A stretch of DNA of 64,000 nucleotides, taken from NCBI GenBank assembly GCA_963846495.1, contig CAWJWP010000016.1, positions 213,879 to 277,878 on the forward strand. The letters are read 5' to 3'. The notes under the pieces were generated by a model. It did not search any database and was not told where the DNA came from. It saw nothing but the letters and a program-made list of their open reading frames with translations. Shown in pieces: positions 8,001 to 64,000 of this stretch (position 1 is its first letter; every line of letters begins with the position of its first letter). Origin of the DNA: Thermoanaerobaculia bacterium (lineage in GTDB: Bacteria > Acidobacteriota > Thermoanaerobaculia > Multivoradales > JAIOJS01). The position numbers were made by a program, and so were the translations under genes.

Positions 8001-10815
8001 ATGCCCCGTCGTCTCGCGACCGCCGGCCCCCGACTGCTCCTCGCAGCCGCGTTGGCGGTCGCGGTGGCGTTGGTGGGCGCCGTCGACCTTTTCCGCAAGG
8101 TCGAAAGCTTCCGTCCGTTGGGCTTCACCGCCCACGCGCGCGCCGGAGCGTGGCGGGTCACCGCCGTCGACGACCCCGCGACCGGCCTCCAGGTGGGCGA
8201 CGCCATCGTGCTCATTGGCGGCGCCGACACCGGCAAGGGGACCGAGGTCCGCCAGCGCCTGCTCGCCGGCGACACGACCATGGTCACCGTCGTGCGCGGC
8301 AGCGAGCCGGTGGTCGTTCCGTATCAGCGGCCGTCGGTGCGCGTCGACTTCCTCTACCTGGCGCTCGCCGGCGCCGGCATCCTCTACCTGATCATCGGCC
8401 TCTACTCCCTGCTGCACGGCCGCCGCTCGCCGTCTGGGGTGTTCTTCCTCTGGGCGGTCGCCTCGGCGGCGGTCTACCTCTGTACGCGGGTGCCCGGCAT
8501 GCCGCTCGACGGGCTCGGCAAGGCGAGCTACGGCGTCGAGGAGCTCGGCCGCCTGCTACTGCCGCCGCTGACGCTCCATCTCTTCCTGATCTTCCCGGTG
8601 CCGGTGCTGCGCCGGCGCCTGCGGCGCTTGGTGCCGTTCCTCTACGTGCCCGCGGCGGCGCTCGTGACGCTGCAAGCGGACCTCGTCTTCAACCGCGGCC
8701 GCTGGTTCTTCGGCGGCCTGCGCAAGGAGTCGCTCGCCGCCTTCGACCGCTTGGAGCTCGGCCTCCTCGCCGTCTTCTCGCTCGCCGCCCTCGTCGCCCT
8801 CGTCTGGCAGCTGCGGCGACGGCACGGCTGGGAGCAGCGGCGGCAGCTGCAGTGGGTGGTGCTCGGCCTCGCCGGCGGCTACCTGCCGTTCATCGCCCTC
8901 TACGGCCTGCCGGCGCTGCTGCACCTGCAGCTGCCCGCTTGGACCGCGGCAGCCGCGGCCGCACCGCTGGTGCTGGTGCCGCTCACCTTCGCCTGGGCGC
9001 TGCTGCGCTTCCGGCTGTGGGACATGGAGCTCATCCTGCGCGGCGCCGTCTCCTACACCGCGACGCTGCTGCTCGGCGTGCTCTCGTTCTCGCTCCTCCA
9101 CCTCGCCATCACGCGCGGCCTGCCCGTGGAGCAGGGCCTGGCGCGGACGGCGCTCTCCTTCGTCTCCGGCCTCGCCATCGCGGCCGTGCTGGTGCCCGCC
9201 GAGCGGCGGGTGCGCTCGGGCATCGAGCGGCTGCAGCACCGCGGCACCTTCGCCCAGCGGCGGGCGCTGCGCGAGCTCGGCCGCGAGCTGCTCGAAGAGC
9301 GCGACCTGCCGCGGCTGTGCGAGCGCCTGCAGCAGCGGCTCTCGGAAGGGCTCGGCCTGCACGAGGTGGCGCTCTACCTCGCCGACGGCGAGCAGCTGCG
9401 GCTCGTCGCCAGCCTGAGCGACCTCGCTCATCACGATGAGGTTCCGGACGCCAGCGCGAGCCCGCCGCCGCCGGCCTTGATTCCCGCCGGCGAGCTCGCC
9501 GAGGTCTGGGGGCTGCAAGTGGCCCGGCTCGCCTCGGCCGGCCTTCCCGGCGTGGCGCCGCAAGGGCCTCGAGCGGCTCTACGCCGGCGGCTTCCGCTAC
9601 GCCTTCCCGCTCGTCGAGCCGCCGCCGCCCGGTCGCCCTCCTCCTCACCGCCGGCCGCCTCGACGGCGAGCCGCTCAACAGCGAGGAGCTCGACCTCCTG
9701 CGCGTGGTGCTCGACCAGACCGCGCTGGCGCTCGAGAACGCGCGACTGGTCGAGGAGCTGCGCAACCGCCTCGCCGAGGTCACCCGACTCAAGCAGGAGA
9801 GCGAGTCGATCCTCGAGTCCTCCCCCGCCGGCATCGTCGTCCTCGACGGCGAAGAGCGCGTCGTCTCCGCCAACGGCGCCTTCGCGCGCCTCGTCGGCCG
9901 CGGCCGCGAGCAGCTCCTCGGCAAGGACCTCGCCGACGTGCTGCCGGTCGAGCCGCTGCCCGGCCCCGGCGAGGCGCTGCGCGAGGTCTCCTACTGCGAG
10001 CCCGACGGCCGCGAGCGCCACCTCCAGCTCTCGCTCGCCGCCTGCGGCCGCGCCGCCGACGACCTGCGCGTGCTGGTCGTGCACGACGTCTCCGAACGGG
10101 TGGCGATGGAGAACCAGCTCAAGGAGAAGGACCGCCTCGCCGCCCTCGGCATGCTCGCCGCCGGCGTCGCCCACGAGGTGAACACGCCGATCACCGGCAT
10201 CTCGAGCTACGCCCAGATGCTGCTCGCCGAGACGCCGAGCGACGACCCGCGCTACGAGCTCCTGCGCAAGGTCGAGAAGCAAACCTTCCGCGCCGCCAAC
10301 ATCGTCAACGACCTGCTCGAGTTCGCGCGCGACAGGAAGCAGGAGCACCGCACGCTCGCCCTCGCCGGGGTCGTGCGGGACGCGCTCGAGTCGCTCGACG
10401 ACCGGCTGCGCCAAGCGCCGATCGAGCTGCTCTGGCAGCCGCCGTCCAATGGACCGATCGTGCGCGGCGGCGACCAGGAGCTGCAGCAGGTGTTCGTCAA
10501 CCTGATCGGCAACGCGGTCGACGCCATGGGCGAGCGCGGCGGCCGGCTCGAGCTGACGGTGACGAGCGAAGGCGACCGCGCCGTCGCCGCCGTCGCCGAC
10601 AGCGGCCCCGGCATCCCCAAGGCCGAGCAGGAGCGCGTCTTCCGGCCCTTCTACTCGACCAAGCTCGCCAGCGGCGGCACCGGCCTCGGCCTCTCGATCA
10701 GCTACCAGATCGTGCGCCGCCACGGCGGCGACCTGCGCGTCGAGAGCGAGCCCGGCCGCGGCAGCCGCTTCGTCGTCGAGCTGCCGCTCCTCGACGGCGA
10801 CGCCACCGGAGGCCT

Positions 10816-10822: not shown

Positions 10823-12192
<1,370 letters not shown>

Positions 12193-23394: not shown

Positions 23395-23921
23395 GTGAGC
23401 GACGACGAAGCCGAAGTCCTCGGCGAAGGCCGCTTCCTGCGCCTGCTGCGCCGCCGCGGCTGGGAGCTCGTCGAGCGCAACGGCGTACACGGCATCGTCG
23501 TCCTCGTCGCGGTGACGCCCGAACGGCGAGCTGCTCCTCGTCGAGCAACACCGCGAGGCCATGCGCGGCACCGTCATCGAGCTCCCCGCCGGCCTCGCCG
23601 GCGACGAAGCCGACAACGCCGGCGAATCGCTGGAGCAAGCGGCAACCCGCGAGCTGCGCGAAGAGACCGGCTGGGAGGCGACGTCATGGGAGCGCCTCTC
23701 CGCCGGCCCGCCGAGCGCCGGCCTCTCGACCGAGGTCGTGACCCTCATGCGTGCGCGCGGCTTGGAGCGGCGCGGCAACGGCGGCGGCGCGGGCGACGAG
23801 CGCATCACCGTTCACGCGATGCCGCTTCGCCGACGCACCCGACTGGCTCCGCGACCGCGAAGCCGCCGGCGCCCTCGTCGACCCCAAAGTCTGGGCCGGC
23901 CTCTGGTTCGCGACGCGCTGA
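23395..23921 (+). CDS. NUDIX hydrolase (ADP-ribose pyrophosphatase-like), disrupted by two +1 frame changes
   Basis: The Nudix box is ELPAGLAGDEADNAGESLEQAATRELREETGWEA. Frame 1 gives VSDDEAEVLGEGRFLRL...VTPE, frame 2 gives GELLLVEQHREAMRGTVIELPAG..., and frame 0 gives FADAPDWLRDREAAGALVDPKVWAGLWFATR* with stop at 23919-21. Confidence 0.7.
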
Positions 23922-25468: not shown

Positions 25469-26145
25469 TTATCGGACAACGGTGAAGAGCGACGCCGCAC
25501 CGCGCACGATCCACCAGAGGCCGACGAGGCGGAGCACCCAGAGCAGGTTGCGGATGCCGAGCAGGAAGAAGTTGTGGGCAGGGAACGGCACCCGGACCGG
25601 CACCGCCGGCTTGGCCGTCAGGTAGCCGAAGGCGACGACGTTGACGGTGATCCCCACCGCGAGCTGGAAGAGCGCCACCGCCGGATCGAGCCAGCGCGCC
25701 TCGCCGAGCGCCGCCGCGAGCAGCGCGGCGAGGAGGAGCAGCAGCGGGACGAAGATGCCGGCGCGCAGCGGCAGCCGCGCACGAGCCAGGAACGCAACGA
25801 AGCGCGCCGCCGCGTCGCGATGCCGCGCGCACGTCACCGCGACCAGCTCGCGGTCTCCACCCACGAGCAGCGGCAGCGGCTCGGCATGCGGCCGCGGCTG
25901 GCCGTTGCACCATAGGCACTTCCGCTCCCGCACCGCCTCCATGTACGGCCGCGCCAGGAAGCGGTGGCCGAGCATCAGCGCCACGCCCGCGGCGAGGCTC
26001 GCGCCCACCGGCGCGGGGTGACGCACGAAGAGGTAGAGCACGACCGGGATGAAGAGGAAGAGCGCGACGCCGAGGAGCTGCCAGCCCCACCCCCGCGGGC
26101 CAAGCCCGCTGCCGCCCCCCACCCAACCCCCTCCCCTCGGTTTCA
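25469..26145 (-). CDS. Hypothetical integral membrane protein with CxxC...CxxxH motif
   Basis: TM helices plus KCLWCNGQPRPHAE...VTCARHRD. The ORF track fuses it to the upstream ALDH gene by read-through. The start is uncertain: a GTG near 26145 lies in a G-run region. Confidence 0.4.
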
Positions 26146-26164
26146 CTTCACCCCTATCCCCCCG

Positions 26165-26190
26165 TCCCCCTGCCCCTCCAGGGGCAGGGG
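26165..26190. repeat. Perfect 12-bp GC hairpin CCCCCTGCCCCT-cc-AGGGGCAGGGGG inside a C-rich tract (26101..26200)
   Basis: Exact inverted repeat seen in the sequence, in the spacer between the ALDH stop and the downstream membrane gene. The minus strand is G-run rich. No U-tract follows. Confidence 0.7.
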
Positions 26191-31515: not shown

Positions 31516-32493
31516 TCACGCCGCCCACGCGCGCATCAGCTCGCCGCCGGCGCCCGGCGCGGCACCGCGATCGTCGTCAGGTCGTGCGCCGCTTCCGTCT
31601 CCGGGAAGACCGCGCGCGCTTCGGCGAGGAGCTCGTCGACGGTCTCGCCACCTTCCTGCTGGTAACGCGCGCTGAAATGGGTGATGACGAGCCGCGCGGC
31701 GCCGGCGCGGCGCGCCACCTCCGCCGCCTGCGCTGCCGTCGAGTGCGCGCGCTCGGCCGCCATCAGCCGCCGGCTCTCGCCGAAGGTCGCCTCGTGGACG
31801 AGCAGGTCGGCGCCGCGCGCCAGCTCGACCGCCGCCTCGCACGGCCGCGTATCGCCGCAGACCGCGACCACGCGGCCGGGCACCGGCGGCGCCAGCAACT
31901 CGGCGCCGCGTACCTCGCGGCCGCCTTCGACGCACGACGCTGCCGCCGCGCTTCAAGGTGCCGAGGTCGGGACCCGAGGTGACACCGAGCTCCGCTGCGC
32001 GCGCCGCATCGAGGCGGCCGGGGCGCGCCGCCTCCTCGACGCGGAAGCCGAAGCAGGGCACGCCGTGCTCGAGCGGCAGACAGCGCACGCGCAGCGCGCC
32101 TTCGCCCTCGACTTCGTCCAGCACCACGCCGGGCGCCAGCTCGTGCACCCGCAACTCATAGGTGCAACCCGCGTGTGCCGCGCGAAGCGTGACGTCGACC
32201 ACCTCGGCGAGCCCGCGCGGGCCGTAGACGTCGACTGCCGTCTCGACGCCCAGCATGCTGAGGCTGGTGAGCAACCCCGGCAGGCCGTAGAGGTGGTCGC
32301 CGTGGAGGTGGCTGACGAAGATGCGGCGGATCTGCGGCGGCCGCAGCGGCGTGCGCAGCAGCTGGTGCTGCGTCGCCTCGCCGCAGTCGAAGAGCCACAG
32401 CTCGCGCCGCTCGGGCAGCCGCAGCACCGCCGCCGAGACGTTGCGCTGCCGCGTCGGCATCGCCGAGCCGGTGCCGAGGAAAGTGAGCTCCAC
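31516..32493 (-). CDS. rnz: Ribonuclease Z (tRNA 3'-processing endonuclease), with a frame change near 31935
   Basis: GTG 32493 start. Metallo-beta-lactamase motif HLHGDH. The N-terminal frame runs to …LKRGGSVV, then the C-terminal frame gives (R)EGGREVRGAELLAPPVPGRVVAVCGDTRPC…ITHFSARY, consistent with an extra C near 31938. Confidence 0.8.
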   Translation of the reverse strand: MELTFLGTGSAMPTRQRNVSAAVLRLPERRELWLFDCGEATQHQLLRTPLRPPQIRRIFVSHLHGDHLYGLPGLLTSLSMLGVETAVDVYGPRGLAEVVDVTLRAAHAGCTYELRVHELAPGVVLDEVEGEGALRVRCLPLEHGVPCFGFRVEEAARPGRLDAARAAELGVTSGPDLGTLKRGGSVVRRRRPRGTRRRVAGAAGARPRGRGLRRYAAVRGGGRAGARRRPARPRGDLRREPAADGGRARALDGSAGGGGGAPRRRRAARHHPFQRALPAGRWRDRRRAPRRSARGLPGDGSGARPDDDRGAAPGAGGELMRAWAA

Positions 32494-32544
32494 GCGCGCA
32501 CGCTACCAAGGCGGGCGGCAGTCGGCGAGCAGGAGCGTCGTGAC

Positions 32545-32636
32545 GTCGCGGCTGACCAAGCGACTCGTCGTTGCGAGGAGCGCAGCGACGAAGCAACCTC
32601 GATCTCCGCAGGGAGCGGAAGCCGCTACGGGGCAGT
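32545..32636. repeat. 92-bp direct repeat, copy 1 (identical to 33145..33236)
   Basis: Base-for-base identity over 92 bp, seen directly. It contains the 36-bp core GTCGTTGCGAGGAGCGCAGCGACGAAGCAACCTCGAT. It lies upstream of rnz. Confidence 0.9.
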
Positions 32637-32640
32637 AAAG

Positions 32641-32845
32641 GTGAAGAAGAAAAAGTAGAGAGGGAAGAAGAGGAAATAAAAAAAGAGAGGGAAAGAAAAA
32701 AGAGGGAAGAGGAGAGAGGAAAAGAGAGAAAAGAGGAAGAAGGGAGAGGAATGAGAGAAGAGAGAGAGAGAGAGGAAGGAGAGGAGAGAGAAGAAGGAGA
32801 CGAGAGAGAAGAGGAAGAGAAGGAAAAGGGGGAAGCTGGAGATGA
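32641..32845. repeat. ~205-bp almost pure A/G tract (polypurine on the + strand, polypyrimidine on the transcribed strand of rnz)
   Basis: GAAGAAGAAAAAG…AGAGAGAGAGAGAGGAAGGAGAGG… with only a handful of T or C. It stands out sharply from the surrounding GC-rich DNA. The next ~300 bp (to 33144) remain strongly purine-skewed with very few T. Confidence 0.9.
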
Positions 32846-33078
32846 TGCCGCGCAGCGACGCGGAACGCGACCAGCGGATGATGGGCAACAGACTGCCAGA
32901 AGAGCACGAGGGCGTTGCTCGTCCCACGCGCGAAGACCTCGAGGCGGACGACTGAAAACGAGACGACCGGGGGGACGACGACGAGCGCACCACCGAGGGA
33001 ATGCGCACCACGACGAATAGCCGAAGGGCACTGTATGACAGAAGTGCCACAGCGCGAAGACGGCGCCGCGCGCGAAGA

Positions 33079-34554
33079 CTACGAGGCGCCCAACCGAGAA
33101 GCGCCACACGGCGAGCCTCGACGTGAGCACGGGGGGGAGAGACTGTCGCGGCTGACCAAGCGACTCGTCGTTGCGAGGAGCGCAGCGACGAAGCAACCTC
33201 GATCTCCGCAGGGAGCGGAAGCCGCTACGGGGCAGTGGTGGAGTGTCGCCGCTTCGAGCGCCCGCTCCGCCTCGGTCGCCGGTCCGCGTGGCTCGCCGCG
33301 CGACACCACGACGGCCGCCGCGAGGTCGCCGGTGACGTTCAAGGTCGTGCGGCACATGTCGAGGAAGCGGTCGACGCCGAGGATCAAGCCGATGCCCTCG
33401 ACCGGCACGCCGACCATGCCGAGGATCATCGCCACCACCGGGATCGAGCCCGCCGGGATGCCGGCGGTGCCGATGCCGCCGAGGATGCAGATGACGAGCA
33501 CCAGCACCTGCTGCGCCAGCGTCAGGTCGATGCCGTAAAACTGCGCCAGGAAGAGCACCGTCACGCCCTCGAAGAGCGCGGTGCCGTTCTGGTTGGCGGT
33601 GGCGCCGATCGTGAGCACGAAGCGCGACACCTGCGGCGGCAGCTTGAGGTTCTTCTCCGCCACCTCGAGCGCCGTCGGCAGCGTGGCGTTCGACGACGCC
33701 GTCGAGAAGGCGGTCACCATCGCCTCCTGCACGCCGCGGAAGAAGAAGCGCGGGCTCATGCCGCCGAGGAACCTGACCGCCAGCGAGTAGACGACGAACT
33801 GGTGGATGGCGAGCGCCAGCACGACGACGCCGACGTAGCGCGCCAGCTGGAAGAGCACCTCCCAGCCGAGCTGCGCCGTCAGTGTGAAGAGCAGCGCCGC
33901 GACGCCGATGGGCGCGAACGAGATCACCAGCTGGATGAGCGTCATGGTGACGTCGTAGAGCCCTTCGATCGCGTCCTGGAAGCGCCGCGCCGCGTCGGTG
34001 CGGGTGAGGAGGAGGCCGATGCCGATCGCCAGCGAGAAGAACATCCACGCCAGGTACTCGCCGCCCGCCGCCGCCTTCACCGGGTTGTCGGGGACGATCT
34101 GCAGGAAGAGGTCGACGCCCGTCTTCGGAGCGCTGGCGGTGCTGGAGAAGGTCGCCGCGCGCTCCGCGGCGCCCTCTGAGACACGCGCCCGCGTCTCCGC
34201 CGACATGCCCTCGCCCGGCCGTATGAGGTTGACGAGCACGAGGCCGAGCAGCACGGCGATGCTCGACACCACGATCGTGTAGGCGAGCGTCTTCAGACCG
34301 ACGCGGCCGAGCCCGCGCACGTCGCCGAGCCCCGCCACGCCGAGCGCCAGTGCCGAGAAGATGAGCGGCAGCACCAGCATGAAGAGCAGCCGCAGGAAGA
34401 TCTGCCCCACCGGCTGGGAGACATACTTGACGAAGCCGTCGAGAGTGATGAAGCCAAAGAGCGTCCACCCGCGCGCGAAGAGGTAGGCGAGCACGCCGCC
34501 ACCGGCGCCGATAACGCCGCCGATCAACATGCGGGTATGGAGCGGGATGCGCAC
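33079..34554 (-). CDS. Dicarboxylate/amino acid:cation symporter (DAACS; GltP/DctA family)
   Basis: Typical DAACS TM and re-entrant loop sequence (…FSTASSNATLP…GIDLTLAQQ…IPAGSIPV…DRFLDMCRTTLNVTGD…). The C-terminal ~45 aa are read from the 92-bp repeat and are probably not native. An in-frame-shifted TAG exists inside the repeat. Confidence 0.8.
   Translation of the reverse strand: MRIPLHTRMLIGGVIGAGGGVLAYLFARGWTLFGFITLDGFVKYVSQPVGQIFLRLLFMLVLPLIFSALALGVAGLGDVRGLGRVGLKTLAYTIVVSSIAVLLGLVLVNLIRPGEGMSAETRARVSEGAAERAATFSSTASAPKTGVDLFLQIVPDNPVKAAAGGEYLAWMFFSLAIGIGLLLTRTDAARRFQDAIEGLYDVTMTLIQLVISFAPIGVAALLFTLTAQLGWEVLFQLARYVGVVVLALAIHQFVVYSLAVRFLGGMSPRFFFRGVQEAMVTAFSTASSNATLPTALEVAEKNLKLPPQVSRFVLTIGATANQNGTALFEGVTVLFLAQFYGIDLTLAQQVLVLVICILGGIGTAGIPAGSIPVVAMILGMVGVPVEGIGLILGVDRFLDMCRTTLNVTGDLAAAVVVSRGEPRGPATEAERALEAATLHHCPVAASAPCGDRGCFVAALLATTSRLVSRDSLSPPCSRRGSPCGASRLGAS
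33145..33236. repeat. 92-bp direct repeat, copy 2 (identical to 32545..32636)
   Basis: Exactly 600 bp downstream of copy 1. It overlaps and supplies the last ~30 codons of the GltP-like ORF. Confidence 0.9.
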
Positions 34555-37980: not shown

Positions 37981-37998
37981 CCCCGCGAGGACGCGGGG
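37981..37998. terminator. GC hairpin CCCCGCG-agga-CGCGGGG downstream of malQ (no U-tract)
   Basis: Perfect 7-bp inverted repeat seen in the sequence, about 100 bp after the malQ stop. Confidence 0.4.
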
Positions 37999-38060
37999 TC
38001 GGCTCCACGACGTCGGGACTCGCCGTTGGCTCGCCCCTCTGGTTGCGACAGAATCGCGCC

Positions 38061-43795: not shown

Positions 43796-44100
43796 ATGTC
43801 CAACGCACCGGGGAATCGGGTCGACATCGTCGTCTGCCAGAAGCATGGCCTGCGCTACAACCGCGTCACCGATACCGGCTGCGCGATGTGCCGCCGCGAG
43901 GCGGCCGAGGCGGCCGGCGCACCGGCGAGCACGGGCGCGGTGCGCGTGGCAACCGCCCGCAACGGCGCCGCGGTCCGTGCCGCCCGACCGCCGGCTCCGC
44001 CTCCCGCGGCTGCTCGTCCGGTAGTGCCGCCCGCACCGCGACCCGCGGCGGCTCCTGCGCCGCGGCCGAGCGCCGGCTGCGCCAGCACCACCCCGCGTCG
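43796..44100 (+). CDS. Zinc-ribbon motif protein A (CxKHGLRYNR-x5-GCxxCRRE) with Pro/Ala-rich tail; frame unclear after ~44030-44100
   Basis: Begins MSNAPGNRVDIVVCQKHGLRYNRVTDTGCAMCRREAAE. Beyond the PA-rich region the plausible reading moves to another frame and runs into gene B without a stop. It may be one protein or two tandem paralogs. Confidence 0.4.
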
Positions 44101-44288
44101 CCGCCGCAACGCCGCCACGAGCAACTCCGACGCTCCCGCCAGCACCGCCGGCCTCGGCGGCGCCGACTCCCGCACCATTCGCGCCGCCCGCGACCGAAGC
44201 TCTGCCGTCGCTGCTTCCCGACCTACCGCCGCTCCTTCCCGATCTGCCGCCCGAGCCCGAGGCGCTGACCGCCACCGGCTCGCGACGG

Positions 44289-44804
44289 ATGGACGTCGCG
44301 ACCTGCGAGAAGCACGGCCTGCGCTACAACCGCGCCGTCGAGAGCGGCTGCGTGCGCTGCCGGCGCGAGAGCGGCGTGGCGACGACGGCCACGGCCGGCA
44401 CGGGAGCCAGTCGGCTGGGCACCGCGGTGCGGCTCGACGCGCCCTCTTCCGTCGGCACCCAGCTGCTCATCGCCGTCTTGCTCATCGGCGGCACCGGCGG
44501 CCTCTGCTTCGCGGCGCACCAGGCGGTGCTCAACAGCTTCGCCGGCGGTCTCCTCATGCAGACGGGGAGCGCCGGGATGGACGTCGTCGACGATCCCGGC
44601 GAGGCCTACGACGCAGCCGCCGAGCCCGCCGCCTGGCCGCCGCCGCGGCCGACAGGGCCGCAGCCCACCGCGCCTCCCGGCATGAAGGGGCGCGGCCCGG
44701 CCGAGGAGCAGAAGCAGATCGAGGAGCTCTTCCGCCAGATGCAAGAGGACGAGGCGAAAGAGCGCGGCGAGCAGCCGCCGCCCGCGGAAGAGATCCCGCA
44801 GTAG
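44289..44804 (+). CDS. Zinc-ribbon motif protein B (CEKHGLRYNR-x5-GCxxCRRE), single TM, acidic C-terminal tail
   Basis: MDVATCEKHGLRYNRAVESGCVRCRRE…, then the TM segment TQLLIAVLLIGGTGGLCFAAHQAVL, then …EEQKQIEELFRQMQEDEAKERGEQPPPAEEIPQ*. The N-terminal motif is duplicated from gene A. Confidence 0.55.
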   Translation: MDVATCEKHGLRYNRAVESGCVRCRRESGVATTATAGTGASRLGTAVRLDAPSSVGTQLLIAVLLIGGTGGLCFAAHQAVLNSFAGGLLMQTGSAGMDVVDDPGEAYDAAAEPAAWPPPRPTGPQPTAPPGMKGRGPAEEQKQIEELFRQMQEDEAKERGEQPPPAEEIPQ

Positions 44805-57032: not shown

Positions 57033-57833
57033 ATGGCGGCGCGCGCGATGTGGAAGGGCGAGCTGGTGATCGGCAAGCAGCGGCTGCCGGTCAAGCTCTA
57101 CGCGGGGGTGCAGGAGAAGAAGGTGCGCTTCAACCTCCTCCACGACAAGGACGAGGCGCGCGTCGAGCAGCGGCTGATCGATCCCGAGACCGACGAGGCG
57201 GTGGCGAGCGCGGAGCTGCGCAAGGGCTACGAGGTCGAGCCCGGCACCTTCGTCGTGCTCGAGGACGAGGAGCTCGCCGAGCTCGAGCCCGAGGCGTCGC
57301 GCGACGTCGAGGTGACGCGCTTCGTGCCGGTGGGCGCCATCCATCACCAGTGGTACGAACGGCCGTACTGGCTCGGCCCCGACGGCGACGCCGACGGCTA
57401 CTTCGCGCTCGCCGCCGCGCTCGAAGCGAGCGAGCGCGAAGGCGTGGCCCGATGGGTGATGCGCAAGCGCCCTTACGTCGGCGCGCTGCGCCGCGAGGGC
57501 GACTACCTGATGCTGGTCGCCCTGCGCCACGCCGAAGAAGTCGTGCTGCCGACGGAGCTTCACGCTCCCGCGGGCCGCGCGCTCGACGCCAAGGAGAAGA
57601 AGCTCGCCGAGCAGCTCGTCGAGGCGCTCGCCGACCACTTCGACCCCGCCGCGTACCACGACACCTACCGCGAGCGCGTGCAGGAGCTCATCGAGGCGAA
57701 GGCGAAGGGGCGCAAGCTCAAGCTGGTGAAGCCGAAGGCGAAGAAGGCGCCGGAGAGCCTCGAGCGCGCGCTGCTGGCGAGCCTCGAGCGCAACTCGAAG
57801 GCGCCGGCGAAGAAGCAACGGAAGGCGAGCTGA
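57033..57833 (+). CDS. ku: Ku protein (NHEJ DNA-end-binding), paralog 1
   Basis: Ku core N-terminus MWKGELVIGKQRLPVKLYAG… and the typical basic C-terminal tail. Confidence 0.8.
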   Translation: MAARAMWKGELVIGKQRLPVKLYAGVQEKKVRFNLLHDKDEARVEQRLIDPETDEAVASAELRKGYEVEPGTFVVLEDEELAELEPEASRDVEVTRFVPVGAIHHQWYERPYWLGPDGDADGYFALAAALEASEREGVARWVMRKRPYVGALRREGDYLMLVALRHAEEVVLPTELHAPAGRALDAKEKKLAEQLVEALADHFDPAAYHDTYRERVQELIEAKAKGRKLKLVKPKAKKAPESLERALLASLERNSKAPAKKQRKAS

Positions 57834-57836
57834 GCC

Positions 57837-58835
57837 ATGGCCAACGGATCGCGCGGCCGTCATCGCCGCAAGCCTGCAGACGAAAATGGCAACGGAGCCG
57901 CGCGCCCGCGCTCCTTCTGGTCGGGCACCATCAGCTTCGGCCTGGTGAGCATCCCCGTCGACCTCTACCCCGCCAACCGCTCGGGCCGTCCCGGCCTGCG
58001 CCTGCTGGCGCCCAGCGGCCTGCCGGTGCAGCGGCGCTACGCCTCCTCGCGCGAGGACACGATCGTGCCGTCCGAGCGCCTCGTGCGCGGCTACGAGGTC
58101 AGGAAGGACGAGTACGTCGTCGTCACCGACGAGGAGCTGGCGGCGCTGGCGCCGGAGAAGAGCCGCGACATCGACCTGCAGCGCTTCGTGCCGGTCGAGG
58201 AGGTCGACCCGGTGCTCTTCCAGCGCGCCTACTTCCTCGCTCCCGGCGGCGAGTCGGCGAAGGCCTACCGCCTGCTCGCCGACGTCATGGAGAGCACCGG
58301 CCGCGCCGGCATCGCCACCTTCGTGATGCGCGACAAGGAGTACTTCGTCGCCATCCTCGCCGAGGGCGGCATCCTGCGCGCCGAGACCCTGCGCTTCGCC
58401 GACGAGGTGCGCTCCGCCGAGGACGTCGGCCTTCCCGCGCCGAAGAAGCCGAAGGCGGCGGCCGTGACGTCGCTGAAGCGCGCCATTGCGGCGCGCGCCA
58501 AGAAGGAGCTCGACCCCGACGAGCTCGCCGATCCGTGGAGCGCCAACCTCGAGAAGCTCGCGGAGAAGAAGCGCCGCCAGGGCGAGGACGTCGTCGAGGT
58601 GCCGGAGGAGGCCGAAGAGGAGCAGGCCGAGGTCATCGACCTGATGGAAGTGCTCAAGCGCAGCCTCGGCGCCAAGGCTACTAGCGGCGCGGGCCGGAGC
58701 GCGACGCGCGGCGCCACGAGCCGGCGGGCGCCGGCGAAGAAGGCGGCGCCGCGCTCGCGCAGCCGCCGCGGCTCGACGACCGCGAGCAAGGCGCGCGGCA
58801 AGCAGCGCAAGACGAAGAGCGGGCGCGGCGCGTAA
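57837..58835 (+). CDS. ku: Ku protein (NHEJ DNA-end-binding), paralog 2 with long Lys/Arg/Ala-rich tail
   Basis: FWSGTISFGLVSIPVDLYPA… matches the canonical Ku beta-barrel start. It begins 4 nt after paralog 1. Confidence 0.85.
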   Translation: MANGSRGRHRRKPADENGNGAARPRSFWSGTISFGLVSIPVDLYPANRSGRPGLRLLAPSGLPVQRRYASSREDTIVPSERLVRGYEVRKDEYVVVTDEELAALAPEKSRDIDLQRFVPVEEVDPVLFQRAYFLAPGGESAKAYRLLADVMESTGRAGIATFVMRDKEYFVAILAEGGILRAETLRFADEVRSAEDVGLPAPKKPKAAAVTSLKRAIAARAKKELDPDELADPWSANLEKLAEKKRRQGEDVVEVPEEAEEEQAEVIDLMEVLKRSLGAKATSGAGRSATRGATSRRAPAKKAAPRSRSRRGSTTASKARGKQRKTKSGRGA

Positions 58836-58910: not shown

Positions 58911-59042
58911 CATCGAGTTACCGCGGGCGTTCGCTCTCGCGGAGAGTCCGCTTCACCGCGACGGTGCTCGCCGTTGGCTCGCCCCTCTGGTTCGCCACGC
59001 CGCTTCGCGGCGTCTCGATGCCGAGGCACTTGGGCTCAGCTC

Positions 59043-62825: not shown

Positions 62826-64000
62826 CTAGCCGGTAGCGCACTCGGCGGCGCGCACGAGCAAGAGCGTGCGCTCGCGTTCGTTCTTGGTGAGGGCGGCGGC
62901 GCGTTCGAATTCGGTGCGCGCTTCGGGGAAGCGGCCGAGTTTCTGGAGCAGATCACCGCGCACGGCGGGGAGCAGGTGGTAGCTCTGCAGCGCGGGCTCC
63001 GCGAGGAGCGTGTCGACCACCGCGAGACCCGCTGCTGGACCGGAAGCCATTCCTACCGCGACGGCGCGGTTGAGCTCGACGACGGGCGAGGGCAGGACGC
63101 GGCCGAGCTCTTCATAGAGCGCGACGATGCGCGGCCAGTCGGTGTCCGCCGCGACGCGGGCGCGGGCGTGGCAGGCGGCGATCGACGCCTGCAGCGCGTA
63201 GGGGCCGAGGCGGCCGGCGGCGAGCCGCTCGGCGTGCGCCAGCGCGGCGAGGCCGCGGCGGATGAGGAGCTGGTCCCAGCGCGCGCGGTCCTGGTCGAGG
63301 AGCAGGATGGGCTCGCCCTTCGGTCCCACGCGCGCGTGCGAGCGCGAGGCCTGGATCTCCATCAGCGACGAGGAGGCCGTGCACCTCGGGCTCGTCGGGC
63401 ATCAGCTCGGCGAGGATGCGGCCGAGGCGCAGCGCGTCGTCGCACAGCGCCGGGCGCAGCCAGTCCTCGCCGGCGGTGGCCGAGTAGCCCTCGTTGAAGA
63501 TCAGGTAGACGACCTCGAGCACCGACGGCAGCCGCGCCTGCAGCTCGGCGCCGCGCGGCACTTCGAAGGGCACGTTCGCCTCCGACAGCGTGCGCTTGGC
63601 GCGCACGATGCGCTGCGCGATCGTCGGCTCGGGCGCCAGGAAGGCGCGCGCGATCTCGCCGGTGGTGAGGCCGCCGAGCAGGCGCAGCGTCAGCGCCACC
63701 CGCGCCTCGGTGGCGAGCACCGGATGGCAGGCGATGAAGAGCAGGCGCAGCAGGTCGTCTCCCACCGGGTCGTCGAGAGCGGCGTCGAGGTCGGGCGGCG
63801 CTTGGCGCTCGACGAGGTCGCGGCCGAGCTCGTCGTGCTTGCGGTCGAGCATGGTGCGGCGGCGCAGCACGTCGATGGCGCGGTGCTTGGCCGTCTGCAT
63901 CAGCCAGGCGCCGGGGTTGTCGGGGACGCCCGCCTCCGGCCAGCGCTCGAGGGCGGTGACGAGCGCGTCCTGCGCCAGCTCCTCGGCGAGGCCGACGTCG
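62826..64000 (-). CDS. ECF-type RNA polymerase sigma factor with C-terminal extension (COG4941-like, LIFNEGY motif), 5'-truncated by the window and with a frame change near 63340
   Basis: Region 4 and extension sequence …AWLMQTAKHRAIDVLRRR…LTTGEIARAFL…VVYLIFNEGYSA…. The C-terminal TPR-like part continues in another frame (62826..63362 ORF). The N-terminus lies beyond 64000. Confidence 0.7.

What the first reader, a model, noticed from the sequence alone, without database searches (positions are those of the whole stretch)
32545..33236. Two perfect 92-bp direct repeats exactly 600 bp apart, flanking a ~205-bp polypurine tract alien to this genome
Copy 1 (32545..32636) and copy 2 (33145..33236) are identical base for base. 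The 508 bp between them begin with a ~205-bp tract that is about 97% A/G (GAAGAAGAAAAAG…AGAGAGAGAGAGAGG…) and stay strongly purine-skewed, with almost no T, up to copy 2. Nothing else in the 64 kb looks like this, and the GC level and strand composition are foreign to the surrounding DNA. Copy 2 supplies the last ~30 codons of the GltP-like symporter, so the native C-terminus or stop was probably displaced. The whole unit sits in the rnz upstream region, so the rnz leader on the transcribed strand would be a ~200-nt CU tract. Four explanations are possible: a small inserted or remnant mobile element with unusually long duplicated ends; about 1.15 copies of a 600-bp tandem duplication; an H-DNA/triplex-forming polypurine-polypyrimidine element acting on rnz expression; or an assembly chimera or collapse at low-complexity sequence.
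Basis: seen in the sequence. Interest (0 to 1): 0.8.

Follow-up and report, generated by a model that had tools for sequence, protein, structure and literature searches.

The report
Probable assembly glitch between two genes
The 92-bp repeats and the purine-only stretch are really in the deposited sequence, but they look more like about 600 bp of junk left in an error-prone long-read metagenome assembly than like a working genetic element, and only the raw reads can settle it.

Summary
32545-32636 and 33145-33236 are identical, 600 bp apart, and enclose 508 bp. The first 209 nt are 96% A/G. The other 299 nt are GC-rich and T-poor, with no codon periodicity, no RNA fold and no homologue. The structure is in the public record: the deposited GltP protein reads through copy 2 into the insert.

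The host is a Thermoanaerobaculia-like MAG. Gene order (AAA_28, gltP, rnz, PMT_2, htrA) is kept in the closest relatives, and their gltP-rnz spacers are 27-94 bp with no trace of the unit. Collapsing the repeat restores a normal 131-bp spacer.

The assembly is indel-ridden. Four frameshifts in conserved genes are verified and about four more are probable in 64 kb. The likely gltP stop (TAG 33227-33225) is itself one base out of frame.

The insert has no terminal inverted repeats, no mobility gene, no other copy, and no mirror symmetry beyond chance.

Best reading (about 0.55): a false duplication with unpolished junk sequence at a hairpin-forming spacer. A real recent insertion remains possible (about 0.3). 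The H-DNA/regulatory reading is unsupported. Interest is low unless reads span both junctions.

The parts
32545..32636 (.). Copy 1 of the 92-bp direct repeat, on the rnz side. Read on the minus strand it is spacer DNA that can fold into a stem-loop whose base lies at the ends of the unit.
   Evidence: It is identical to copy 2. The RNA fold of the minus strand is -41 kcal/mol, z = -2.2. The outer stem pairs 32544-32553 with 32620-32629, and the inner hairpin pairs 32565-32575 with 32581-32591. GC is flat at 0.67-0.68 in all three codon phases.
32637..32845 (+). Polypurine tract of 209 nt (A111, G90, T6, C2). It is a noisy low-complexity sequence made of degenerate 2-, 7-, 9-, 15- and 18-nt units.
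   Evidence: Composition is. TRF arrays show only 64-77% matches with 6-18% indels. Purine runs reach 74, 48 and 34 nt, and mirror arms are no longer than in shuffles (13 against a mean of 12.7). Across 464 kb from 87 related loci no 100-nt window exceeds 77% purine or pyrimidine.
32846..33144 (.). The second part of the insert, 299 nt. It is 67% GC and T-poor (20 T), and is non-coding, unstructured and without any homologue.
   Evidence: GC by codon phase is 0.67/0.64/0.70, a contrast in the lowest 1.3% of 299-nt windows. The fold z-score is -0.25 on both strands. There is no Rfam match and no Pfam match for its ORFs. It has no similarity to the flanks, the rest of the window or the loci. Exact-pattern scans of the collections gave 0 hits.
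33145..33236 (.). Copy 2 of the 92-bp repeat, on the gltP side. The deposited GltP ORF reads through it.
   Evidence: Repeat identity is. P0001, the deposited 483-aa protein, is 100% identical to the window ORF, including the tail SLSPPCSRRGSPCGASRLGAS that is encoded by the insert.
33225..33227 (-). A TAG 10 nt into copy 2, one base out of the gltP frame. It is the probable native stop codon. Its twin in copy 1 is at 32625-32627.
   Evidence: The position was read from the sequence: (34554-33227) mod 3 = 1. Homologues are 416-449 aa and end 10-19 residues after the conserved SRGE motif, which is where this TAG lies. That a one-base insertion error hides it is an inference, made by analogy with the one-base insertions in rnz and PMT_2.
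33079..34554 (-). The gltP-like dicarboxylate/amino acid:cation symporter ORF as it stands (491 codons from GTG 34554; the deposited version starts at ATG 34530). The real coding part is about 33228-34554.
   Evidence: Pfam SDF covers residues 5-419, E = 4.9e-112. The coding-frame signal ends at about 33291. Homologues are listed.
31516..32493 (-). rnz-like metallo-beta-lactamase-fold gene downstream of the unit, broken by a frameshift near 31935.
   Evidence: The Pfam Lactamase_B_2 model is split, with positions 4-132 in one ORF and 133-200 in another. tblastn shows the frame changing between 31951 and 31922. The window has one extra base relative to L005.
32504..32513 (-). Motif TGGTAGCGTG 10-20 nt upstream of the rnz start. 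It is conserved in relatives and lies outside the repeat unit, so it is untouched by the insert.
   Evidence: Spacer sequences of the window, L001, L005 and L007 were compared.

Best explanation
The 600-bp unit (one 92-bp copy plus the 508-bp insert) is most likely not part of the organism's genome. It looks like a local misassembly in a noisy long-read metagenome assembly.

The true locus would be gltP, a stop codon (TAG), a spacer of about 131 bp that forms a stable stem-loop, and then rnz. In the draft, that spacer was laid down twice with about 500 bp of junk between the copies. The junk begins with low-complexity purine (CT on the transcribed strand) of the kind nanopore basecallers are documented to emit.

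Polishing then made the two alignable copies identical. It could not remove or correct the junk, because no genuine read aligns to it.

- Shown here: the structure itself, its absence from relatives, its lack of any biological signature, and the poor base-level quality of the assembly.
- Inferred: the sequencing platform, and the exact route by which junk and duplication arose.
For: 1. The assembly is error-prone.
   - Frameshifts are verified in Aldedh (about 26552), PMT_2 (about 30876), rnz (about 31935) and a sigma-factor/DUF6596 gene (about 63385).
   - Probable frame breaks lie at about 9550-9620, about 23522, about 37759 and the gltP stop.
   - The two located against L005 are single extra bases in the window.
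2. Gene order is conserved in the closest relatives (83-92% GltP identity). Their gltP-rnz spacers are 27, 79, 84 and 94 bp, and none carries the unit.
3. Deleting exactly one repeat plus the insert gives a contiguous, ordinary locus with a stop codon where homologues stop.
4. The insert has no biological signature.
   - No codon periodicity.
   - No fold.
   - No Rfam, tRNA or Pfam match.
   - No promoter or terminator.
   - No inverted termini.
   - No relative anywhere.
5. The tract is noisy low complexity confined to purines. Units match only 64-77%, yet only 8 of 209 bases are pyrimidines. Ordinary mutational decay of a repeat should also produce transversions.
6. Related DNA (464 kb) never exceeds 77% purine per 100 nt.
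7. The last ~40 nt of the insert resemble the native sequence that precedes copy 1 (anchored extension score 8 against a background of 2.1 +/- 2.2, p about 0.025). The purine tract aligns slightly better to the DNA after copy 2 than to background (p about 0.05). Both are weak, but both point in the direction expected of degraded re-reads.
8. Nanopore basecallers produce artefactual (CTTCTT)n, (CT)n and (GT)n-type repeats and pools of unmappable low-complexity reads (PMC9414165).
9. The duplicated segment is a complete stable stem-loop, a plausible trigger for stalling or misalignment. This last point is inference.
Against: No reads were available, so nothing here is direct.

I could not identify the assembly record or its platform. 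Three exact-protein look-ups failed and the cluster record carries no accession.

I cannot name a documented assembler mechanism that yields exactly this duplicate-junk-duplicate pattern.

The 299-nt part is not low-complexity and is not a recognisable garbled copy of the flanks.

The unit falls neatly in an intergenic spacer and breaks no gene. A random artefact would do that only about one time in ten, whereas a tolerated real insertion would be expected there.

Perfect direct repeats are also what a real duplication or site-specific integration leaves. This spacer is a real variable spot, since L007 carries a hicB gene in it.
Confidence: 0.55

Rival explanations
1. This is a real, recent insertion of 508 bp of foreign or newly made non-coding DNA into the gltP-rnz spacer, flanked by a 92-bp duplication of the target. 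One route is Campbell-type or site-specific integration of a small circular DNA that carried the hairpin-forming 92 bp, an att-like core that also restores the gltP stop. Another is the decayed remnant of a larger integrated element whose interior was deleted.
For: The direct repeats are perfect and contain the last codons and the stop of gltP, as att sites at gene 3' ends do. The composition is alien. The position is intergenic and breaks no gene. The same spacer holds an inserted hicB gene in L007. The repeat is bounded by a stem-loop, a typical recombination target.
Against: There is no integrase, transposase or reverse transcriptase in the conserved neighbourhood. There are no terminal inverted repeats. 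There is no second copy in 64 kb and no match in genome, metagenome, viral, plasmid or phage collections. A 92-bp duplication is far longer than any transposase target duplication. The insert carries nothing recognisable. The host assembly is demonstrably unreliable at this scale.
Confidence: 0.25
2. This is a real partial tandem duplication. This strain's native spacer already contained the purine tract and the 299-nt segment, and slippage at the hairpin duplicated 92 bp, giving about 1.15 copies of a 600-bp unit.
For: The geometry fits: the period is 600 and the repeat ends at the base of a stem-loop. Spacers in this lineage diverge completely between relatives, so absence from relatives that are at most 92% identical is not proof of absence in the ancestor.
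Against: It leaves the alien 508 bp unexplained. Relatives' spacers are 27-94 bp. Related DNA has no comparable tract. A 640-bp non-coding spacer with no promoter, terminator, fold or conservation would be unusual in a genome this compact.
Confidence: 0.1
3. This is a functional polypurine-polypyrimidine (H-DNA/triplex or CU-rich leader) element that regulates rnz.
For: Purine runs of 74, 48 and 34 nt could physically form triplexes under supercoiling (the triplex potential itself is general knowledge). The tract lies upstream of rnz on the transcribed strand.
Against: Mirror symmetry is at chance level. There is no conservation in any relative, although rnz and its proximal upstream motif are conserved. 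There is no promoter-like site that would place the tract in an rnz leader. Known bacterial intrastrand triplex motifs are conserved and occur in many copies (PMC4666352), which this is not.
Confidence: 0.03

Closest known systems
False duplications and medium-scale 'glitches' in long-read assemblies (general knowledge of assembler behaviour, not tested against a documented case)
   Same: Exact duplication of a short native segment around sequence with no read-independent support. It sits in a consensus that still carries frequent single-base indels. Collapsing it restores the gene order and spacing seen in relatives.
   Different: I could not see reads, the platform or the assembler, and I know of no described mechanism that gives exactly 92 bp + 508 bp + 92 bp.
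Nanopore repeat-calling artefacts, such as (CCCTAA)n called as (CTTCTT)n and unmappable (GT)n/(CT)n reads (PMC9414165)
   Same: On the transcribed strand the tract is a CT-only, CTTCTT/CTCTCT-rich, noisy low-complexity sequence, the kind of output documented for basecallers.
   Different: The documented cases are miscalls of real repeats in eukaryotic telomeres. Here there is no evidence of an underlying repeat, and the adjoining 299 nt are not low-complexity.
Integrated elements flanked by att direct repeats at the 3' end of a gene, including non-autonomous remnants (the CIME-type remnant comparison is from memory)
   Same: Perfect direct repeats that include the end of the upstream gene flank DNA of foreign composition.
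   Different: There is no integrase or any other gene. The element is only 508 bp and is a single copy with no relatives. The target is a spacer hairpin rather than a tRNA or tmRNA gene (no tRNA in the window).
Bacterial intrastrand triplex motifs / H-DNA-forming tracts (PMC4666352)
   Same: Homopurine-homopyrimidine sequence in intergenic DNA.
   Different: The described motifs are conserved and occur in many copies across more than 260 genomes. This is one 209-nt noisy tract with chance-level mirror symmetry and no conservation.

Membership tests
Assembly artefact (false duplication with junk fill) | Collapsing the duplication restores the arrangement seen in relatives | tested here: met
   The collapsed locus is gltP, TAG, a 131-bp spacer and rnz. 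Relatives with the same gene order have 27-94-bp spacers.
Assembly artefact (false duplication with junk fill) | Independent signs of poor consensus quality in the same contig | tested here: met
   Four frameshifts are verified and about four more are probable in 64 kb.
Assembly artefact (false duplication with junk fill) | No reads, or only aberrant single reads, span both junctions | not testable with these tools
   No read data were available, and the source record could not be retrieved.
Transposable element / MITE | Terminal inverted repeats at the ends of the insert | tested here: not met
   No inverted pair joins 32637... with ...33144.
Transposable element / MITE | Short target-site duplication of fixed length (2-15 bp) | tested here: not met
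   The duplication is 92 bp.
Transposable element / MITE | Multiple copies in the genome or in related genomes | tested here: inconclusive
   There is no other copy in the 64-kb window or in 87 related loci, and exact-pattern scans of the genome, metagenome and viral collections gave 0 hits. The rest of the source genome could not be searched.
Site-specifically integrated element (att-flanked) | Identical direct repeats at both ends that overlap the 3' end of a gene | tested here: met
   The 92-bp copies include the last codons of gltP and its probable stop.
Site-specifically integrated element (att-flanked) | An integrase or recombinase, or recognisable cargo, inside or next to the element | tested here: not met
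   The insert's ORFs have no Pfam match. Neighbouring genes are the conserved housekeeping set.
H-DNA / triplex-forming element | Long homopurine-homopyrimidine run | tested here: met
   Runs of 74, 48 and 34 nt.
H-DNA / triplex-forming element | Mirror-repeat symmetry beyond chance | tested here: not met
   The longest arm is 13 nt, against a shuffled mean of 12.7 and a maximum of 21.
H-DNA / triplex-forming element | Conservation or recurrence at orthologous or other loci | tested here: not met
   It is absent from all relatives, where the maximum purine fraction is 0.77.
Tandem duplication of native DNA | The duplicated unit is native sequence throughout | tested here: not met
   Only 92 bp are duplicated. 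The 508 bp match neither flank, apart from a weak resemblance within the last ~40 nt (p about 0.025).

The most novel reading that the evidence does not exclude
The unit is real. A Thermoanaerobaculia-like soil bacterium recently acquired 508 bp of non-coding DNA that begins with a 209-nt purine-only tract. It was inserted at a hairpin-forming spacer with a 92-bp duplication and with no recognisable recombinase, inverted termini or relatives. That would point to an undescribed insertion route, for example capture of a small circular or polymerase-made DNA at a stem-loop.
Probability: 0.3. Interest if true: 0.55.

Novelty: not a real feature. Interest (0 to 1): 0.15.

Why it matters
If it is an artefact, the lesson is practical. 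This public contig carries a roughly 600-bp false insertion, a symporter annotated about 50 residues too long, and a frameshift roughly every 8-16 kb, so composition anomalies in it should not be read as biology.

If reads prove it real, it would be an unusual case: a purine-only, gene-free insert with a 92-bp target duplication in a phylum with almost no characterised mobile DNA. That would justify a search for the mechanism.

Tried and rejected
**Source record.** Exact-protein look-ups with the window ORF, P0001 and the AAA_28 gene found nothing. The cluster record has no accession.

**RNA and protein signatures.**
- tRNA/tmRNA as an integration target: none in the window.
- Rfam, at E <= 1 locally and at gathering score for the whole window: nothing.
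- Pfam on four ORFs crossing the insert: nothing.

**The insert as a garbled copy of flanking DNA.**
- Ordinary local alignment scored at background level.
- A scoring scheme that forgives pyrimidine-to-purine changes gave no signal for the 299-nt part, and only p about 0.05 for the tract against the DNA after copy 2.
- The two best-scoring places elsewhere in the window (8.6 kb and 25.5 kb) are composition-driven.

**Sequencing adapters (sequences from memory).** No ONT, Illumina or Nextera match. The purine arm of the PacBio SMRTbell adapter matches 32709-32729 at 20 of 21 positions, but p is about 0.02-0.03 before correcting for 15 adapters, and the rest of the adapter is absent. Rejected.

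**Other readings.**
- E/K/R-rich ORF 32571-33020: the GAA/AAA/AGA codons are alien to a genome with 97% GC3, and there is no family match. Rejected as a gene.
- Integron attC, REPIN, DGR and retron readings: considered from memory and dropped. There is no recombinase or RT, there are only two copies, and both lie at one locus.

**Database searches.**
- Plasmid and phage BLAST: only a 32-bp chance hit to the hairpin in a Methylosinus plasmid (E = 4e-3) and no phage match.
- The 80 extra metagenome loci lack the gltP-rnz adjacency, so they served only as a background for composition and as subjects for a BLAST of the unit.
Full report
**1. Observation.**

The sequence is as described. 32545-32636 and 33145-33236 are identical over 92 nt with a start-to-start spacing of 600. 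They are the only matches in the window even at 3 mismatches, and 0 of 100 shuffles gave any match. They are also the only perfect long repeat in the 64 kb.

The 508 bp between the copies fall into two parts.
- 32637-32845 (209 nt) is A111, G90, T6, C2. Uninterrupted purine runs reach 74, 48 and 34 nt.
- 32846-33144 (299 nt) is 67% GC with only 20 T.

The window is 72.2% GC. This is the only place where a 100-nt window reaches 75% purine. The A/T skew of the 299-nt part (0.60) exceeds every other 299-nt window, where the maximum is 0.56.

**2. The structure is in the public record.**

A search with the symporter ORF returned P0001, a 483-aa protein from an NCBI/ENA contig of 660,597 bp. It is 100% identical, including the tail ...SRDSLSPPCSRRGSPCGASRLGAS, which is encoded by copy 2 and the first 63 nt of the insert. 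The feature was therefore deposited that way.

I could not retrieve the record itself. Named homologues at 75-76% identity are labelled Thermoanaerobaculia bacterium.

**3. Anatomy of the locus.**

The relevant genes are on the minus strand. In order they are:
- the SDF-family symporter gltP (Pfam residues 5-419 of the 491-codon ORF);
- the repeat unit;
- an rnz-like metallo-beta-lactamase-fold gene starting at 32493;
- a PMT_2 glycosyltransferase, an HtrA protease and an aldehyde dehydrogenase.

An AAA_28 gene lies upstream of gltP on the other strand.

The same order is found on contigs carrying GltP relatives of 83-92% identity (P0002, L001-L006). Their gltP-rnz spacers are 27, 79, 84 and 94 bp. 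In L007 a 55-aa HicB-like gene sits in the spacer. None has the 92-bp unit or a purine tract. Only a short motif (TGGTAGCGTG) just upstream of rnz is shared, and in the window it lies outside the unit, at 32504-32513.

**4. The symporter's end.**

Homologues are mostly 416-449 aa and stop 10-19 residues after the conserved SRGE motif. In the window that point coincides with the start of copy 2.

Codon-phase GC is 0.67/0.44/0.97 in gltP but flat (0.67-0.68) in the copy. The coding-frame model leaves the gene at about 33291. A TAG lies at 33227-33225, one base out of frame.

The 51 extra codons of the deposited protein are therefore read-through. The 92-bp unit is essentially the stop codon plus spacer. 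It folds into a stem-loop (-41 kcal/mol, z = -2.2) whose outer stem sits at the unit's ends. Removing one copy plus the insert gives gltP, TAG, 131 bp and rnz.

**5. Quality of the assembly.**

- tblastn with proteins of L001 shows frame changes inside rnz, PMT_2 and the aldehyde dehydrogenase.
- The Lactamase_B_2 model is split between two ORFs.
- Against L005 the rnz and PMT_2 breaks are single extra bases in the window.
- A GC3-based frame model recovers these breaks and flags more.
- Pfam confirms one of the flagged breaks: DUF6596 is split between ORFs at about 63385. It is consistent with two others: a truncated NUDIX hit near 23522, and a GH77 ORF that runs 196 residues past its domain into the next gene.

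That is one indel-type error every 8-16 kb, depending on whether the probable breaks are counted. This fits a noisy long-read consensus, although the platform is an inference.

**6. What the insert is not.**

- No tRNA and no Rfam family.
- No Pfam match for its ORFs.
- No codon periodicity in the 299-nt part; the contrast of 0.057 is in the lowest 1.3% of windows.
- No fold beyond shuffles (z = -0.25 on both strands).
- No promoter- or terminator-like site.
- No terminal inverted repeats.
- No similarity to the flanks or to the rest of the window.
- No hit in 87 related loci.
- Nothing real in plasmids or phages.
- No exact match for 24-30-mers of the unit or the insert in the genome, metagenome or viral collections.
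- Mirror symmetry of the tract is at chance level.
- Adapter sequences do not explain it.

**7. What the insert looks like.**

The tract is noisy low complexity. TRF finds overlapping arrays of period 2, 7, 9, 15 and 18 with only 64-77% matches and 6-18% indels. Even so, only 8 of 209 bases are pyrimidines. Mutational decay of a real repeat should also produce transversions, so a process that emits only purines (CT on the other strand) fits better. This step is inference.

Nanopore basecallers are documented to produce (CTTCTT)n and similar artefactual repeats, as well as pools of unmappable low-complexity reads (PMC9414165).

There are two weak hints that the edges of the insert are degraded re-reads of native DNA. 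Both are in the expected direction and neither is strong.
- The last ~40 nt before copy 2 resemble the native bases before copy 1 (p about 0.025).
- The tract aligns slightly better to the DNA after copy 2 than to background when pyrimidine-to-purine changes are forgiven (p about 0.05).

**8. Verdict.**

The most likely explanation (about 0.55) is a false duplication with unpolished junk at a hairpin-forming spacer.

A real recent insertion or duplication cannot be excluded (about 0.35 together). The repeats are perfect, the unit lies between genes and breaks nothing, and this spacer varies in nature. However, it meets none of the testable criteria for a transposon or an integrase-borne element.

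The regulatory H-DNA reading has no support.

Only read-level data or PCR can decide the matter, and the test is simple: about 920 bp against about 320 bp between primers at 33340 and 32420.

Noticed in passing
window 26552, 30876, 31935, 63370-63400 (verified); 9550-9620, 23522, 37759 (probable): There are frame breaks in conserved genes: aldehyde dehydrogenase, PMT_2, rnz and an ECF-sigma/DUF6596 gene. Probable breaks affect a NUDIX gene, the stop of the GH77 gene and one unnamed gene. The two located against L005 are single extra bases in the window.
   Followed up: partly
window 26080-26190: A C-rich intergenic stretch with 25% purine or less per 100 nt lies between the aldehyde dehydrogenase gene and the next gene. 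It is the only other strongly strand-asymmetric spot in the window.
   Followed up: no
window 37998-38044 and 58946-58992: A 47-nt direct repeat, 85% identical, sits in two intergenic regions downstream of plus-strand genes. It has no Rfam match and could be a shared regulatory or terminator-like motif.
   Followed up: no
L007 1671-1838: In one relative, the gltP-rnz spacer holds a 55-aa HicB-like antitoxin gene. This shows that the spacer is a naturally variable spot.
   Followed up: no
window 32504-32513; L001 ~11364-11374; L005 ~2905-2915: The motif TGGTAGCGTG (or GGTGTAGCGTG) 10-20 nt upstream of the rnz start codon is conserved among relatives whose spacers are otherwise unalignable. It may be a promoter or ribosome-loading signal for rnz.
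   Followed up: no
window 43817-43956 and 44286-44425; 57225-57331 and 58089-58195: Two pairs of diverged direct repeats (70-71% identity; 140 nt spaced 469 apart, and 107 nt spaced 864 apart). They are probably duplicated genes or domains.
   Followed up: no
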